A DNA stretch of 64,000 nucleotides from Escherichia phage vB_EcoM_G53, in sequence record MK327943.1. One strand, written 5' to 3'. The notes under the pieces were generated by a model that worked only from the letters and a program-made list of their open reading frames with translations, was not told the origin of the DNA and did no database searches. Position numbers and translations under genes: made by a program. Position 1 is the first letter of the stretch. Each line of letters opens with the position of its first letter. Below are positions 34,518-38,181 of this stretch, piece by piece.

Positions 34518-34886
34518 TTATGCAACTTTAATCCAATTGTCTAAGTTTAAAACACCTTTGGCTTTCATTTTTTCTATCAGGTTATCTGCTGTAATGCGTC
34601 CATTTTGATACCATGTAACATCTTCAGAGTAACCAGTTTCTTCGTCAACATATGTTTCTGAACGAATTTTACCGGTAATAATAGTTTTTAATTCATATGT
34701 GTCACCTGTGAAAAAGTTTGCTAACACAATTTTCCAAGAGAAATCATCTGAAGGACCTTCAGGGGTCATACAACCTACGAACTCAAATTGCTCTTTGTAT
34801 AACATCCACTGGAATTCTTTAATTTCGATAGCTTTATAACCATCGTGGTCTTTACATTTGATGTATGAGTTCAGATTGATTTTCAT
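34518..34886 (-). CDS. Hypothetical protein
   Basis: 122-aa ORF with promoter motif and SD upstream. Confidence 0.5.
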   Translation of the reverse strand: MKINLNSYIKCKDHDGYKAIEIKEFQWMLYKEQFEFVGCMTPEGPSDDFSWKIVLANFFTGDTYELKTIITGKIRSETYVDEETGYSEDVTWYQNGRITADNLIEKMKAKGVLNLDNWIKVA

Positions 34887-34957: not shown

Positions 34958-34993
34958 ATCTTTTTAAACTTTTTCTGCCCTAAACGCACAAAA

Positions 34994-35011
34994 GGGAGAC
35001 CGAAGTCTCCC
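34994..35011 (-). terminator. Terminator: gggagac-UUCG-gtctccc hairpin plus U-tract (minus sense)
   Basis: Same 18-nt hairpin as after genes 23, 32 and 35; minus sense followed by TTTTGTG. Confidence 0.65.
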
Positions 35012-35016
35012 TAAAA

Positions 35017-35196
35017 TTATGCAACAACCTTTCCAAAACGAGAAGCATCATCTCGAAGAACTGCACGTGCTCTGCGCATGATCTTCTCAACTGTTTGATT
35101 AATACGAGAGTTCGACCCACGCTTGTATCCAGCGCGTTTAGAGGTACCATCAACTTTCTTTTCAACTGCTTTCTTTGCTTTAGCTTGTTTTGCCAT
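35017..35196 (-). CDS. Small basic protein (59 aa), function unknown
   Basis: ATG..TAA ORF MAKQAKAKKAVEKK.. (Lys/Arg-rich), below the track's size cut-off; terminator just downstream. Confidence 0.45.
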   Translation of the reverse strand: MAKQAKAKKAVEKKVDGTSKRAGYKRGSNSRINQTVEKIMRRARAVLRDDASRFGKVVA

Positions 35197-35352
35197 TATA
35201 AATTCTCTTTAAATGAAAATGCAGGACTTATTGACATTGCCTGCGCAAGCCCTCAAGGGGAACATAGGTTTTGGATATTTAACGACAGGATAACCATAAA
35301 CCCGTCATCATACCAACCACGACTTAGACAGATAACCTTTTTCTGACGCGTG

Positions 35353-35381
35353 ATAGTACAAAATACATTCAAGAGGTACAC
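35353..35381 (-). promoter_or_regulatory. Promoter-like element GTGTAC-N17-TACTAT inside the rIII-downstream spacer
   Basis: Resembles the recurrent early promoter cassette; would give a leader of about 150 nt to ORF 35017-35196. Confidence 0.35.
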
Positions 35382-35491
35382 CGTAAAACTGCCGGGGCCT
35401 TAAAACTATAATGATTCGCAAATCATTAATCAGACAGTTCGACGGCTCCTCGATTTTCTAGCCGCACTTAAGGTAGCGAATCACCTAAAAC

Positions 35492-35740
35492 TTATTTAAG
35501 GGTAATAACAAAATGACGTACTGCTTTACGAGCTGCAGAAGCCAAAGGCTTAGCATATTTCAGTTCATCTTTTGCTTCCAGTTCAGAGGCCAAAGCTGCC
35601 TGTACCGGGTTCAGATGTTTGAAATAATGCAGGATTTCCAGTGCTTCGGCTTCAACATCAATCGACGCGCCGTAGTTTTCGTGACCGTTATTCCATGCGT
35701 TTCGTTGCAGTTCAAGAGCGTGTTGTAATTGTTTAATCAT
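35492..35740 (-). CDS. rIII: rIII lysis-inhibition accessory protein
   Basis: 82 aa, same length as T4 rIII; position between gene 31 and the 30.x cluster. Confidence 0.8.
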   Translation of the reverse strand: MIKQLQHALELQRNAWNNGHENYGASIDVEAEALEILHYFKHLNPVQAALASELEAKDELKYAKPLASAARKAVRHFVITLK

Positions 35741-35864
35741 TTTAAATTCTCAATTCGAGATAATATTTAGTAGCCACGTTCGTCTGAATTTCACCTTCTT
35801 TCGACAAGTCTCTCAGTTGTAGGCTACCGCTTAGAAGAGTGTTCTCTTCATATAGTTATTTATA

Positions 35865-36197
35865 TCACTTATAAAGACACGGAATAGCTTTATAGTGGCA
35901 TGTTACGAATTTCTGTTTAATTTCTTTAGGTTGTTTAAGTCCCAAAGCCACAAATGGATGTGGAACATTTCGAATTTGTCCAACTGGTAGTGGAGTCAAA
36001 TCACCGACTTCAACAAAACCTTCAGGAACATCAGGACCTACAGAATGAACTACACATAGTTCAGGAACTTCACCTTGAACACGTTTACCAATCACAAGTC
36101 CTGATTCGGTAACTTCTTCATCACCTGCTTGAGCGGGTTCAGAAACCAGAATGACATATTCACCAACAGCACGAATTGGGAGTTGTACTTCAGACAT
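35865..36197 (-). CDS. 31: Co-chaperonin gp31 (GroES analogue)
   Basis: 110 aa, near-identical to T4 gp31 as recalled. Confidence 0.9.
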
Positions 36198-36563: not shown

Positions 36564-37134
36564 AAAAGTTTCGGATTTGTTCCCAATTCAGAGAACGAAG
36601 ATTATTACGAGAGTACTGAATTACTTCAATACCGGCTTGTTTTAGAATGTCTGCCCAATTTTCAGGAGATCGGTCGTATAATTCTGCATATACAACCTTT
36701 TTAATACCTGACTGTGTAATAGCTTTAGTGCAATCAGGACACGGAGAAAGCGTCGTATATAACGTAGCACCTTCAATAGAATTACCTTTACGAGCTGCAA
36801 ATAAAATTGCATTCAGTTCAGCATGGATTTCATTATTAGCAGACCATGCACTATGAGCGGCCCGATGTTCTTTAGCCAAAACAAAATTATCCACCCGTCC
36901 AAATGCTGTAGTGCCTTCTTTATGCCCAGCAACGATGACCGGGCTTGGTTTATTCTTCAACCAACCGTTTTCGGATGCATGTTCGCAACAGTTTGTACCA
37001 CCTGAAGGAGAGCCATTATAACCTGTAGAAATAATGCGTCCATCTTTTTCAATGACGGCACCAACTTTCCATGAACAACATTTTGATTCTTGAGAAATCA
37101 AATAAGCAATTTGAAGATATGTGCTAGCTTTCAT
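36553..37134 (-). CDS. cd: dCMP deaminase
   Basis: 193 aa as T4 Cd; zinc motifs HAELNAI and PCPDC. Confidence 0.9.
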   Translation of the reverse strand: MKASTYLQIAYLISQESKCCSWKVGAVIEKDGRIISTGYNGSPSGGTNCCEHASENGWLKNKPSPVIVAGHKEGTTAFGRVDNFVLAKEHRAAHSAWSANNEIHAELNAILFAARKGNSIEGATLYTTLSPCPDCTKAITQSGIKKVVYAELYDRSPENWADILKQAGIEVIQYSRNNLRSLNWEQIRNFCGE

Positions 37135-38181
37135 TATTGAACCTTATTAATATAAGTTAACAGCTCTTTAGTTTGTTCCCAACTGATGCACGCATCGGTA
37201 ACGGAAACGCCATAGGACATATTATCAGAAATTTTTTGATTTCCTTCATGTAGGAATGATTCTATCATAATTCCTTTGACCAAATCATTAGCTGCTAAAT
37301 TTTTACCAATACCAATTTGATTGCTATAATGCCCATCAGCGTTTGCATGGCTACAGTCAACCATTACATAATGATTCAGACCTACTGCACTTGCTTTGTT
37401 AGAAGCTTCTTGAATATCAGAAGAATGATAGTTGACCTACTGCACTTGCTTTGTTAGAAGCTTCTTGAATATCAGAAGAATGATAGTTCGGGCCGTTGGT
37501 CCCGCCACGCAATACGATATGCGTATTCTGATTACCTTCAGCTTCAACAATGCCTACAGTACCATCGACGTCCATACCCATATACCGATGAGGCCAGGCG
37601 GCACTATACATCGCGTCTGTAGCTACTTTAATAGAACCATTGGTTGCGTTCTTGAAGCCTACGCACATCGGTAGACCTGAAGCAATTTCACGATGTGTCT
37701 GACTTTCAGTCGTACGGGCGCCAATAGCAACCCATGAGAAAATACCAGAAAGATACTTAATCGTGAATGGGTCTAATACTTCAGTTGCTAATGGAAGTCC
37801 CATACGTAGAAGTTTACGACACAATGTTCGTGCAACTATAAGACCGTGGTTCATATCAAAACTTCCGTCAAGATATGGATCATTTACAAGACCTTTCCAA
37901 CCTACGGTAGTTCGAGGCTTTTCAAAATAAACGCGCATCACTAACAGAACATTAGGAAGACGAGTTTGAAGTTCAGCCAGACGTTTGCCGTATTCAACAG
38001 CAGCAATAGGGTCATGAATTGAACAAGGACCTACAACAATAAGTTTGCGTGGGTCTTCACCGTTCATAATCGAATTAACTTGTTCGCGATGAGAAGCCAC
38101 TTGTGATGCGTAAGCTTCCGACAAAGGAATAATCTCAGCCAGTTCTTTTGGAGAAATAAGTTTTCTGACGACAGGTAACAT
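37134..38181 (-). pseudogene. DAHP synthase (AroG/AroF-type 3-deoxy-7-phosphoheptulonate synthase), frameshifted by a 55-bp tandem duplication
   Basis: Track ORFs 37417-38181 and 37134-37364 both resemble E. coli AroG (GPCSIHDP, VMRVYFEKPRTTVGWKG, GARTTESQ, DCSHAN); they fuse in frame if one repeat copy is removed. Confidence 0.8.
37379..37488. repeat. Perfect 55-bp direct tandem duplication (2 copies)
   Basis: 37379-37433 equals 37434-37488 base for base; flanking bases differ; 55 is not a multiple of 3. Confidence 0.9.

What the first reader, a model, noticed from the sequence alone, without database searches (positions are those of the whole stretch)
35197..35491. 295-bp ORF-free, GC-richer spacer downstream of rIII
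Genes elsewhere in this block are packed with overlaps or gaps of only a few tens of bases. This spacer is far longer, visibly more GC-rich than its surroundings, and has no ORF above about 18 codons on the minus strand. It contains a promoter-like GTGTAC-N17-TACTAT (35353-35381) that would give a leader of about 150 nt, and short inverted repeats (gattcgc/gcgaatc, cggct/agccg). It could be a structured leader, a small RNA or a replication/recombination element.
Basis: seen in the sequence. Interest (0 to 1): 0.5.

Follow-up and report, generated by a model that had tools for sequence, protein, structure and literature searches.

The report
Antitoxin-mimic RNA in structured phage spacer
The long gap after the phage gene rIII is a conserved, folded, non-coding RNA region whose first 40 bases copy the bacterial RNA antitoxin ToxI, so it probably acts as a decoy against the host's ToxIN suicide defence.

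Summary
The 295-nt gap (35197-35491) is real. It is the longest true non-coding stretch in the 64-kb window. It lies between rIII and gene 30.9 of a T4-type (Mosigvirus) phage and is transcribed on the minus strand.

It is a mosaic of six short RNA modules (A, B, F, C, D, G). Related phages carry these modules in different orders and combinations. Where T4 has the same sequence, the spacer is about 97% identical, against 85.5% for rIII. Paired positions change in compensating ways.

Module A (35452-35491) is one orphan unit of ToxI, the pseudoknot RNA antitoxin of the ToxIN abortive-infection system. A covariance model built only from bacterial ToxI repeats hits it at 54 bits (E = 6e-9). It is 91% identical to the annotated pseudo-ToxI of phage phiTE. 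It keeps the two bases (C27, U28) that published mutagenesis found essential. The likely role is an anti-ToxN decoy, which is inferred, not shown.

Module C is a well-supported H-type pseudoknot, found in every Tevenvirinae spacer examined. The other modules are hairpins. None of B, F, C, D or G has a known counterpart.

I found no report of ToxI mimics in T-even phages.

The parts
35452..35491 (-). Module A: one orphan ToxI-like unit (pseudo-ToxI). The core AGGUGAUUCGCUACCUUAAGUGCGGCUAGAAAA is at 35454-35486. It forms a small pseudoknot: GGU/ACC and UCGC/GCGG.
   Evidence: A model built only from bacterial ToxI repeats gives 54.3 bits, E = 6.4e-9, full length, and this is its only hit in the window. 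Plasmid matches lie in 36/37-nt tandem arrays just upstream of annotated ToxN genes. It is 91% identical to the annotated pseudo-ToxI ncRNA of phage phiTE. Phage copies covary: 88% of cells paired against 28-52% for slid controls.
35484..35500 (-). The rIII stop-codon region CUUAAAUAAGUUUUAGG, which contains AAAU, the published ToxN(Pa) cleavage motif AA^AU, 5' of module A. A second AAAU lies 3' of it, inside GAAAAUCG (35448-35461).
   Evidence: Read from the sequence. The cleavage specificity comes from PMC5086642. Processing at these sites is inferred, not shown.
35365..35454 (-). Module B: a 90-nt long hairpin. Outer stems are GAGG/CCUC, GCCGU/ACGGU and GAACUGUC/GGCAGUUU. An inner hairpin UAAUGAUU-UGCG-AAUCAUUA lies at 35409-35428. 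There is also a ~20-nt unpaired stretch UAGUUUUAAGGCCCC.
   Evidence: The RNAalifold consensus over 13 distinct copies has 25 pairs, 5 with compensatory changes. Invariant G.U pairs fit only the minus-strand RNA. It differs from T4 at 2 of 90 positions (97.8% identity). No bacterial counterpart was found.
35311..35359 (-). Module F: a hairpin with internal loops and a conserved apical loop AAAAGGUUA.
   Evidence: 15 predicted pairs, 5 with compensatory changes, in 7 distinct copies. Its presence or absence accounts for the 54-nt indel relative to T4.
35261..35315 (-). Module C: an H-type pseudoknot. P1 is GACGGG/CCUGUC. The conserved linker is CGUUAAAUAUCCAAAAC. GGUU in the P1 loop pairs with the downstream AACC. 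It is present in every Tevenvirinae rIII-30.9 spacer examined.
   Evidence: In 28 distinct copies on a plain MAFFT alignment, 83.5% of cells are paired against 31-50% for slid controls. The covariation score is 0.405 against <=0.114. Eight of 13 pairs have changes on both sides, and 0 of 500 shuffles reach the observed value. Model R1 finds one copy per locus and one in the 64-kb window. It also finds one in a Proteus Gelderlandvirus.
35246..35263 (-). Module D: a small hairpin, GUUCCCCUUGAGGGCUUG (CCC/GGG stem). It lies before or after module C in different phages.
   Evidence: It is unique in the window and recurs in relatives in both orders. The stem hardly varies, so covariation cannot be tested.
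35221..35244 (-). Module G: a hairpin GCAGG/CCUGC with a conserved loop CAAUGUCAAUAAGU, followed by a U-rich tract.
   Evidence: The stem changes to ACUGG/CCAGU in Gelderlandvirus-type phages while the loop is kept. Two pairs are compensatory.
35194..35210 (-). Shine-Dalgarno-like AAAGAG and the ATG of gene 30.9.
   Evidence: Read from the sequence.
35017..35196 (-). Gene 30.9: a 59-aa, very basic protein of unknown function, immediately downstream of the array.
   Evidence: Matches phrog_1427. tblastn finds it in 1006 phage records. It has no similarity to the ToxN inhibitor TifA.
34989..35011 (-). Intrinsic-terminator-like hairpin GGGAGACUUCGGUCUCCC plus UUUUG after 30.9. This is the likely 3' end of the rIII-spacer-30.9 transcript.
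   Evidence: Read from the sequence. The nearly identical phage ATK47 has a terminator annotated at this site.
35492..35740 (-). Gene rIII. Its transcripts read into the spacer.
   Evidence: Matches phrog_1457. Upstream lie a late-promoter motif TATAAATA at 35857-35864 and a sigma-70-like site at 35760-35788. PMC9409239 states that T4 rIII is served by early, middle and late promoters.

Best explanation
The spacer is a non-coding, multi-module structured RNA. It is carried on the minus-strand rIII -> 30.9 transcript of a T-even-type phage.

Its first module (35452-35491) is a single, complete copy of ToxI. ToxI is the 36-nt pseudoknot RNA that holds the host endoribonuclease ToxN inactive in the type III toxin-antitoxin / abortive-infection system ToxIN.

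Proposed mechanism. When the phage shuts off host transcription, the labile host ToxI decays and ToxN is freed. Phage transcripts made from the rIII promoters throughout infection supply a ToxI look-alike. ToxN may cut it out at the flanking AAAU sites. The look-alike then binds ToxN and blocks it, so infection is not aborted.

The five downstream modules fold independently. They are one universal H-type pseudoknot (C) and four hairpins (B, F, D, G). Their function is unknown. Most likely they stabilise or process this transcript, or control 30.9 translation, or act as further decoys.

Shown here: homology to ToxI, the covarying folds, the strand, the conservation, the single copy number, and the absence of a toxN gene in the window.

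Inferred: expression, processing, binding to ToxN, and any protective effect.
For: ToxI identity of module A:
- BLAST of the spacer hits only its first 44 nt in plasmids, with 2-13 places per record.
- Those places are 36/37-nt tandem arrays directly upstream of genes annotated as ToxN/AbiQ toxin.
- One such ToxN is near-identical to the solved E. coli and P. atrosepticum ToxN structures 7D8O and 2XD0.
- A covariance model made only from bacterial ToxI units hits 35452-35491(-) at 54.3 bits, E = 6.4e-9, full length.
- The annotated pseudo-ToxI ncRNA of phiTE matches at 91%.

Functional plausibility of the sequence:
- The window unit equals ToxI plus U9C/A25G (a compensatory pair), UUU->UU, and one extra 3' A.
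- Blower et al. (PMC3475682) found that these changes do not impair antitoxin activity. They found C27 and U28, both kept here, to be essential.
- Early genetic work led to the prediction that a single 36-nt ToxI repeat can inhibit ToxN (PMC3401426).
- AAAU motifs flank the unit.

Host tracking: different phage lineages carry variants that match different host ToxI types. These include an E. cloacae type at 97% and an E. coli pNMEC type at 94%.

Constraint on the whole spacer:
- The spacer is ~96.6% identical to T4 in shared columns, against 85.5% for rIII and 88.4% for gene 31.
- Modules A, B, C, F and G covary.
- G.U pairs fix the strand as minus.
- The spacer sits inside a transcription unit that runs from promoter-like sites upstream of rIII to a terminator-like hairpin after 30.9.
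Against: - There is only one copy. Bacterial arrays have 4-13. Wild-type phiTE, with 1.5 repeats, did not escape until the repeats expanded.
- The 5' tail (UUUU, with the nearest AAAU 9 nt upstream) differs from the AUUC tail of ToxI. That tail contacts ToxN in the solved complex.
- T2, T4 and T6 carry a diverged module A that the ToxI model does not detect. All three are strongly restricted by plasmid-borne toxIN.
- RB69 lacks module A altogether, yet it is the least restricted of the four, an effect attributed to the protein TifA (PMC9391042).
- So module A is neither necessary nor sufficient in the tested phages. It could be a recombination remnant.
- No expression or processing data were found for this region.
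- Modules B, F, C, D and G have no bacterial counterpart.
Confidence: 0.6

Rival explanations
1. The whole spacer is simply the 5' leader of gene 30.9 and the 3' UTR of rIII. The folded modules control translation of 30.9, protect the bicistronic mRNA from RNases, or direct its processing. The ToxI-like unit is a passenger with no anti-defence role.
For: The array always lies between rIII and 30.9, on the gene strand, and ends at the 30.9 ribosome-binding site. Module C is present wherever 30.9 follows rIII. It is absent where that arrangement is missing, in L037 and Pseudomonas phage PspYZU05. No promoter or terminator separates the modules from the genes. Module A is dispensable, since RB69 lacks it.
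Against: Module order, number and distance to the start codon vary freely, which is unusual for a leader that acts by a defined fold. phi92-like phages have taken up the spacer without 30.9. A leader role does not explain why phage variants of module A track different host ToxI types and keep the ToxN-contact bases.
Confidence: 0.3
2. Module A is a neutral scar of past recombination between T-even phages and ToxIN plasmids, of the kind seen experimentally in phiTE-F. It decays slowly and has no function.
For: The T4-type copies have drifted away from the ToxI core (not detected by model R2). Some lineages have lost the module (RB69 and L010-L013). Recombination with toxI is documented for phiTE.
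Against: Even the diverged copies keep both pseudoknot helices through compensatory changes: CGC/GCG, CAC/GUG and UGC/GCA, and GGU/ACC to AGU/ACU. The window copy is intact at every position known to matter. 85 phage records match at least 80% of the 44-nt query.
Confidence: 0.2
3. One reading: an internal sigma-70-type promoter (GTGTAC-N17-TACTAT, 35353-35381) starts a ~150-nt structured leader or a small RNA. Alternatively the region is an origin or a recombination element.
For: The string is present.
Against: The consensus scan does not report it. The -10 lies in module F, which T4 and others lack. The -35 is part of an invariant helix strand of module B. No repeats typical of an origin were seen. 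The 'ori type 2 repeat' annotated in the ATK47 record is a 10-nt pattern match next to the 30.9 start.
Confidence: 0.04
4. The spacer hides a small protein-coding gene.
For: Minus-strand ORFs of 42 and 37 codons exist with GTG/TTG starts. Some database records annotate hypothetical proteins here.
Against: No frame stays open in relatives. Indels of 1 nt and module swaps break every frame. The substitution pattern is pair-compensating rather than codon-periodic.
Confidence: 0.02

Closest known systems
pseudo-ToxI of Pectobacterium phage phiTE (Blower et al. 2012, PMC3475682)
   Same: Both are phage-encoded, orphan ToxI-like non-coding sequences with no toxN gene. They are 91% identical over 35 nt. 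They share the U9C/A25G compensatory pair, the UU loop and the extra 3' A.
   Different: phiTE has 1.5 repeats that do not give one complete RNA unit, and it carries the inactivating C27G/U28A changes. The window has one complete unit with C27 and U28 intact. phiTE's copy sits in a tRNA-like context in a Vequintavirinae phage. This copy is the first bead of a multi-module array between rIII and 30.9 in Tevenvirinae. Activity has been shown for expanded phiTE loci only, and nothing has been tested here.
ToxI antitoxin RNA of ToxIN (pECA1039 of P. atrosepticum; E. coli ToxIN, PDB 2XDB/2XDD/7D8O)
   Same: Same conserved core (AGGUGA-N3-GCUACC-N2-4-AAGUGC), the same two pseudoknot helices, the same GCUAGAA 3' segment, and A-rich cleavage motifs at the ends.
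   Different: It is not in a tandem array, not followed by the locus terminator and toxN, and has a different 5' tail.
TifA (gp61.4) and Dmd of T4: protein inhibitors of the host toxins ToxN and RnlA (PMC9391042)
   Same: TifA has the same proposed target (ToxN), the same logic (a phage-supplied substitute antitoxin), and occurs in the same phage group.
   Different: Those are proteins encoded in a different genome region. The neighbouring 30.9 protein shows no similarity to TifA.
CptI / TenpI antitoxins and the 5' domain of the pistol ribozyme (architectural comparison for module C)
   Same: Module C is an H-type pseudoknot in which a hairpin loop pairs with a downstream segment across a long A-rich linker. 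CptI is described as an H-type pseudoknot with a long adenine-rich loop. TenpI repeats average 51 nt and occur in enteric bacteria. Pistol also pairs its P1 loop with a downstream segment. Its GUUAAAUA linker is recalled from memory only.
   Different: No sequence relative of module C was found in plasmids, E. coli genomes, 185,579 species genomes or a TenpIN-bearing Yersinia plasmid. There is no room for pistol P2, and no P3 / GU junction. Rfam gave no hit at all to pistol or preQ1.

Membership tests
ToxI (RNA antitoxin of type III TA system ToxIN) | Conserved core sequence AGGUGA-N3-GCUACC-N2-4-AAGUGC, scored against a profile of bacterial ToxI units | tested here: met
   Model R2, built from 10 bacterial units only, gives 54.3 bits and E = 6.4e-9 at 35452-35491(-), full length. 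The same core motif occurs as tandem arrays in several of 16 matching genomes from diverse bacterial groups.
ToxI (RNA antitoxin of type III TA system ToxIN) | Pseudoknot of two short helices (positions 2-4 with 13-15, and 8-11 with 23-26) | tested here: met
   In 15 distinct phage copies, 88.3% of cells are paired against 28-52% for slid controls. Three pairs have changes on both sides. The U9C/A25G pair in the window copy is compensatory.
ToxI (RNA antitoxin of type III TA system ToxIN) | ToxN-contact nucleotides C27 and U28, shown by mutagenesis to be essential | tested here: met
   The window reads ...GCGG-C-U-AGAAAA. Their importance comes from PMC3475682.
ToxI (RNA antitoxin of type III TA system ToxIN) | Tandem array of about 2 or more repeats | tested here: not met
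   One hit in the 64-kb window and one per phage locus. Bacterial arrays have 4-13 units.
ToxI (RNA antitoxin of type III TA system ToxIN) | Lies upstream of a terminator and a toxN gene | tested here: not met
   tblastn of four ToxN proteins against the window gives no hit better than E = 0.19. The unit is followed by module B and gene 30.9.
ToxI (RNA antitoxin of type III TA system ToxIN) | Inhibits ToxN and is processed by it at AA^AU | not testable with these tools
   AAAU motifs are present on both sides (35484-35500 and 35448-35461). Cleavage and binding need experiments.
Phage pseudo-ToxI (antitoxin mimic) | Orphan ToxI-like sequence in a phage genome, homologous to the phiTE ncRNA | tested here: met
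   91.4% identity to JQ015307 106715-106749, which is annotated as pseudo-ToxI.
Phage pseudo-ToxI (antitoxin mimic) | Expressed during infection and suppresses ToxIN abortive infection | not testable with these tools
   Its position inside the rIII transcription unit suggests expression. Published phage data are mixed.
Pistol self-cleaving ribozyme (considered for module C) | P1, P2 and P3, a pseudoknot between the P1 loop and the P2-P3 junction, and a two-nucleotide GU junction at the cleavage site (PMC4604425) | tested here: not met
   P1 and a loop pseudoknot exist. Only 5-6 nt separate the linker from the pseudoknot strand, so there is no P2. Module D can lie on either side of C. Rfam gave no pistol hit even at E <= 10 on 151 nt.
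preQ1-I and other pseudoknot riboswitches (considered for modules A and C) | A match to the curated covariance models | tested here: not met
   No riboswitch family appears among hits with E <= 10. Nothing in the whole window reaches a gathering score.
TenpI / CptI antitoxins (considered for module C) | Tandem repeats of 39-57 nt upstream of a TenpN/CptN toxin gene, homologous to the module | tested here: inconclusive
   Length and fold type are compatible. No homologue was found in plasmids, E. coli genomes or species genomes. There was also no significant hit on the TenpIN-bearing plasmid NC_009705, where the tenpIN locus itself could not be located and the last ~3 kb were not fetched.
   The scan does not report it. 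The -10 is absent from T4.
tRNA / tmRNA | A cloverleaf detected by ARAGORN | tested here: not met
   No tRNA or tmRNA gene in the window.

The most novel reading that the evidence does not exclude
The whole rIII-30.9 spacer of Tevenvirinae may be an 'RNA anti-defence island'. It would be a string of independently folding decoy RNAs. Each would mimic the RNA component of a different host defence, with ToxI as the first one identified. Module C could be a TenpI/CptI-like antitoxin. The 135-nt module E of relatives and the other modules would have targets still unknown. Recombination would shuffle, gain and lose the beads as host defences change. The array can also move as a block, as shown by its transfer into the tRNA cluster of phi92-like phages.
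Probability: 0.15. Interest if true: 0.92.

Novelty: new variant of a known kind. Interest (0 to 1): 0.72.

Why it matters
ToxIN against T4 is a leading model for how abortive infection is triggered and evaded. The published escape routes in T-even phages are proteins or regulators (TifA, AsiA). An RNA antitoxin mimic was known only from phiTE.

A complete ToxI look-alike downstream of rIII appears in dozens of Mosigvirus, Tequatrovirus and related genomes (85 records match at least 80% of the module A query), with variants that match the ToxI types of different hosts. This suggests that RNA mimicry of type III antitoxins is a common, standing part of phage counter-defence. It gives a directly testable prediction in a tractable system.

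The same spacer holds several covarying RNA modules with no Rfam family. These include a pseudoknot found in every Tevenvirinae spacer examined. In relatives there is also an ornate 135-nt RNA. These are new candidates for functional phage RNAs. They also show that a region left unannotated, or mis-annotated as hypothetical proteins, in hundreds of records is not a spacer at all.

Tried and rejected
RNA family and gene searches that found nothing:
- Rfam on the region, on a 151-nt sub-window, on eight relatives and on the whole window gave no meaningful hit.
- ARAGORN found no tRNA.
- Whole-spacer folding z-scores were not significant. The signal lies in the modules, not in the bulk energy.

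Identities considered and dropped:
- Pistol ribozyme and preQ1 riboswitch for modules C and A. They fail on architecture and on the covariance models.
- T4 stable RNAs C and D. No similarity by eye.
- A replication origin. oriE was recalled as a possibility but it maps elsewhere (from memory). The ATK47 'ori type 2 repeat' is only a 10-nt pattern match.
- Gene 30.9 as a TifA paralogue. No similarity.

Searches for bacterial counterparts of modules B, F, C, D, G and E, all negative:
- BLAST against plasmids and E. coli genomes.
- A degenerate module C pattern against 185,579 species genomes gave 0 hits.
- Model R1 on ToxIN loci and on the first 150 kb of the 153-kb Yersinia plasmid said to carry tenpIN gave only chance-level scores. 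I could not locate the tenpIN locus itself.

Other:
- The metagenome scan with 30.9 added only 18 near-identical loci.
- Literature searches found no description of the rIII-30.9 spacer or of a ToxI mimic in T-even phages. Subscription journals are not covered. One possibly relevant paper (Driukas and Nivinskas 2003, Biologija) could not be read.
Full report
1. THE OBSERVATION

The window is a T4-type phage of the genus Mosigvirus. The 901 bases around the finding are 100% identical to Escherichia phages vB_EcoM_WFL6982, WFK and MM02.

All local genes read on the minus strand. They are gene 31 (35865-36197), rIII (35492-35740), gene 30.9 (35017-35196) and gene 30.8 (34518-34886). The gap between the rIII stop and the 30.9 ATG is exactly 35197-35491, 295 nt.

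With a crude gene call the median gap in the window is 18 nt. The only nominally larger gap is filled by a 177-aa ORF. So this is the longest true non-coding stretch in 64 kb.

The spacer GC is 0.407. That is above the window mean (0.381) and the neighbouring intergenic regions (0.35-0.37). It is below the flanking genes (0.426-0.428), so 'GC-richer' is only half right.

ATG-started ORFs on the minus strand are indeed 18 codons or fewer. GTG/TTG-started ones reach 42 codons. None is conserved.

2. TRANSCRIPTION CONTEXT

- Upstream of rIII lie a late-promoter motif TATAAATA (35857-35864) and a sigma-70-like site (35760-35788).
- A published statement says that T4 rIII is served by early, middle and late promoters (PMC9409239).
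- No promoter-like or terminator-like site was found inside the spacer.
- A strong hairpin plus U-tract follows 30.9 (34989-35011). It is annotated as a terminator in the nearly identical phage ATK47.

The spacer is therefore most simply the intercistronic part of an rIII-30.9 transcript. This is inferred from the sequence. No transcript data were found.

3. CONSERVATION

A homologous spacer is present in 775 phage records, including T4 itself (AF158101 130541-130784, unannotated).

Identity of the window to T4:
- rIII: 85.5%
- gene 31: 88.4%
- gene 30.9: 93.5%
- spacer, in the columns both phages have: about 96.6% (226 of 234)

The only large difference from T4 is a 54-nt indel. A non-coding region that is better conserved than its neighbouring genes is under selection.

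4. A MOSAIC OF MODULES

I extracted the spacer from 40 viral contigs fetched through rIII, plus T4, ATK47 and others. It is built from short blocks that recur in different orders and combinations.

Examples of module order:
- Window: A-B-F-C-D-G
- T4: A-B-C-D-G
- RB69: B-F-C-D-G
- Other genera: D-C-F, D-C-A-F, C-A-E-D, E-C-D and more

Each module is single-copy in the window.

Structural tests:
- Module C (35261-35315). On a plain MAFFT alignment of 28 distinct copies, a hairpin plus loop-to-3' pseudoknot has 83.5% of cells paired, against 31-50% when partners are slid. The covariation score is 0.405 against at most 0.114. Eight of 13 pairs change on both sides. None of 500 shuffles reaches the observed value.
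- Module A. Both helices of a small pseudoknot are 88% paired, against 28-52% for slid controls.
- Module B. It is a 90-nt long hairpin with five compensatory pairs and invariant G.U pairs. Those pairs would be C.A mismatches on the other strand, so the folded molecule is the minus-strand RNA.
- Modules F and G. They are hairpins with conserved loops and covarying stems, but few distinct copies.
- Module D. Its stem barely varies, so it cannot be tested.

Module C occurs in every Tevenvirinae spacer examined, including a Proteus Gelderlandvirus. It is absent where the rIII-30.9 arrangement is absent.

5. MODULE A IS ToxI

BLAST of the spacer against E. coli genomes and against PLSDB plasmids hit only its first 44 nt. 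Matches were 87-90% identical, with 2 to 13 places per record.

Those places are tandem arrays of 36/37-nt units that lie directly upstream of genes annotated as 'type III toxin-antitoxin system ToxN/AbiQ family toxin':
- 13 units in Pectobacterium pPA21A
- 5.6 in E. coli pTA141-2
- 4 in E. coli pU90-1
- 4 in an E. cloacae plasmid
- 6 in pNMEC-O75B

The pTA141-2 toxin is essentially the solved E. coli ToxN (7D8O) and is close to P. atrosepticum ToxN (2XD0).

A covariance model built from ten bacterial units only, with no phage sequence, finds window 35452-35491 on the minus strand. The score is 54.3 bits, E = 6.4e-9, full length. It is the model's only hit in 64 kb.

As a positive control, the same 44 nt hit the feature annotated 'pseudo-ToxI' in Pectobacterium phage phiTE at 91% identity.

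The ToxI core motif also occurs as tandem arrays in genomes from cyanobacteria to gammaproteobacteria.

The window has no toxN gene.

6. WHAT PUBLISHED EXPERIMENTS SAY ABOUT THIS EXACT SEQUENCE

I number ToxI as in Blower et al. The window unit is A1-GGUGAUU-C9-GCUACC-UU-AAGUGC-G25-G-C27-U28-AGAA-A.

Relative to ToxI of pECA1039 and E. coli it carries three changes:
- U9C with A25G, a compensatory pair
- UUU shortened to UU
- one extra 3' A

These are groups 2, 3 and 5 of the phiTE pseudo-ToxI changes. The paper reports that, alone or together, they had no effect on antitoxin activity. The inactivating group 4 changes (C27G, U28A) are not present here (PMC3475682).

The ToxN(Pa) cleavage motif AA^AU (PMC5086642) occurs on both sides of the unit. 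One is in the rIII stop region (UUAAAUAAG). The other is in GAAAAUCG.

Differences from a bona fide unit:
- The 5' tail is UUUU instead of AUUC.
- The upstream site is 9 nt away rather than 4.

7. HOST-MATCHED VARIANTS

Other phages carry other versions of module A, and these match other ToxI types:
- The L030 version is 97% identical to E. cloacae plasmid ToxI.
- The L034/L035 version shares its GCGAACUUGAAA 3' segment with that same type.
- The L023 version is 94% identical to ToxI of 6.4-kb E. coli and Salmonella plasmids.

The corresponding ToxN proteins are only 37-42% identical to one another.

The T4/T2/T6 version has drifted from the core and is not detected by the model. It still keeps both helices through compensatory changes.

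8. PROPOSED MECHANISM AND ITS WEAK POINTS

The best reading is an antitoxin mimic, working as follows:
- The phage shuts off host transcription.
- The labile host ToxI decays and ToxN is freed.
- Phage transcripts supply a replacement ToxI-like unit.
- ToxN may excise the unit, and is then blocked by it.

This is inference. The evidence against it is real:
- There is a single copy.
- Wild-type phiTE needed repeat expansion to escape.
- T2, T4 and T6 are strongly restricted by plasmid-borne toxIN.
- RB69 lacks module A, yet it is the least restricted, an effect attributed to the protein TifA (PMC9391042).

The window-type unit is much closer to canonical ToxI than T4's copy. It has not been tested.

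9. THE OTHER MODULES

B, F, C, D and G are confined to Tevenvirinae, plus a secondary transfer. They have no detectable counterpart in the following searches:
- E. coli genomes and plasmids
- 185,579 species genomes, searched with a degenerate module C pattern
- ToxIN loci, and a plasmid reported to carry tenpIN

Module C shares its architecture with CptI. Both are H-type pseudoknots with a long A-rich loop. Its length also fits TenpI, whose repeats average 51 nt and occur in enteric bacteria. It resembles the 5' part of the pistol ribozyme as well, but it lacks P2, P3 and the cleavage junction, and Rfam gives no hit.

I commit to this: modules B-G are independently folding elements of the rIII-30.9 transcript. 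A cis role in 30.9 expression or mRNA stability is somewhat more likely than a role as further decoys.

The 30.9 protein is small and very basic. It is unrelated to TifA.

- GTGTAC is part of the invariant 3' strand of module B.
- TACTAT lies in module F, which T4 lacks.
- The cited inverted repeats pair bases from different modules.

None of these is supported.

11. NOVELTY

The kind of element, a phage RNA that mimics ToxI, is known from a single phage. What appears to be new:
- Its presence, as a complete unit with the critical bases intact, in T-even-type phages.
- Its lineage-specific matching to host ToxI types.
- Its position as one bead in a shuffled array of covarying RNA modules that have no Rfam family.

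I found no mention of any of this in the phiTE papers, the type III TA review, the Serratia T4-family escape study or the T4 TifA study. The literature I can search is incomplete.

Noticed in passing
window 37134-37364 and 37417-38181 (minus strand): An aroG-like DAHP synthase gene is split into a 254-aa ORF and a 76-aa ORF separated by about 50 nt. The homologue in phage ATK47 is one intact gene of about 330 aa. This could be a frameshift, a pseudogene or a sequencing error.
   Followed up: no
L009 1875-2017, L021, L023, L027, L030 and 12 other loci (same position as window module F): Many relatives carry a ~135-nt module E (CGGCAAGUGCAUGC...GCUAACGGUGUGCAACAGAUAAGAG). There are 17 distinct variants with what look like many compensatory changes in several helices. 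It is single-copy per genome and always at this locus. It has no Rfam hit and no plasmid hit. It looks like an ornate, undescribed RNA.
   Followed up: partly
L041 1290-1640 and L042 (phi92-like 149-kb phages; also NC_023693 53498-53736): A T4-type spacer (A-B-C-D-G) sits inside a tRNA gene cluster. It is followed by the 30.9 start codon fused to rIII codons 45-82. The insert is flanked by a 13-nt direct repeat TTTATTGGAGATT, whose last 7 nt are the 5' end of the next tRNA. It looks like a circularly permuted insertion of the spacer as a mobile block.
   Followed up: partly
L128 290-400 (phage phiTE, JQ015307 106714-106810): The phiTE pseudo-ToxI is embedded in a tRNA-like sequence. A D-arm-like TAGCTCAG lies before it. 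GGTTCGAACCC...CCACCA lies after it.
   Followed up: no
phage records listed (e.g. NC_015938 37665-37701, KY883654 20044-20081, MZ634344 74012-74046): Single ToxI-like units at 86-97% identity occur in many unrelated phages. These include Salmonella 7-11, Vibrio JSF10, T5-like Klebsiella phages (two places per record), G7C-like coliphages, Erwinia IT22, Acinetobacter PhT2 and Serratia 92A1. In total 119 records match. Orphan ToxI mimics may be widespread.
   Followed up: no
L023 1750-1785, L030, L035, L039 (relatives' spacers): A further recurrent module H is a hairpin with the conserved loop UGUACG and freely covarying stems (CCAUG/CAUGG, CUCUG/CAGAG, CUUUG/CAAAG).
   Followed up: no
L109 6344-6606 (phage RB69, NC_004928 132343-132605): RB69 lacks module A. 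Its spacer starts directly with module B. This bears on published comparisons of T2/T4/T6 and RB69 on toxIN hosts.
   Followed up: yes
window 35199-35206 (plus strand): TATAAATT is one base from the T4 late-promoter motif TATAAATA. It points antisense into the spacer. It may simply be the reverse complement of the AT-rich 30.9 ribosome-binding region.
   Followed up: no
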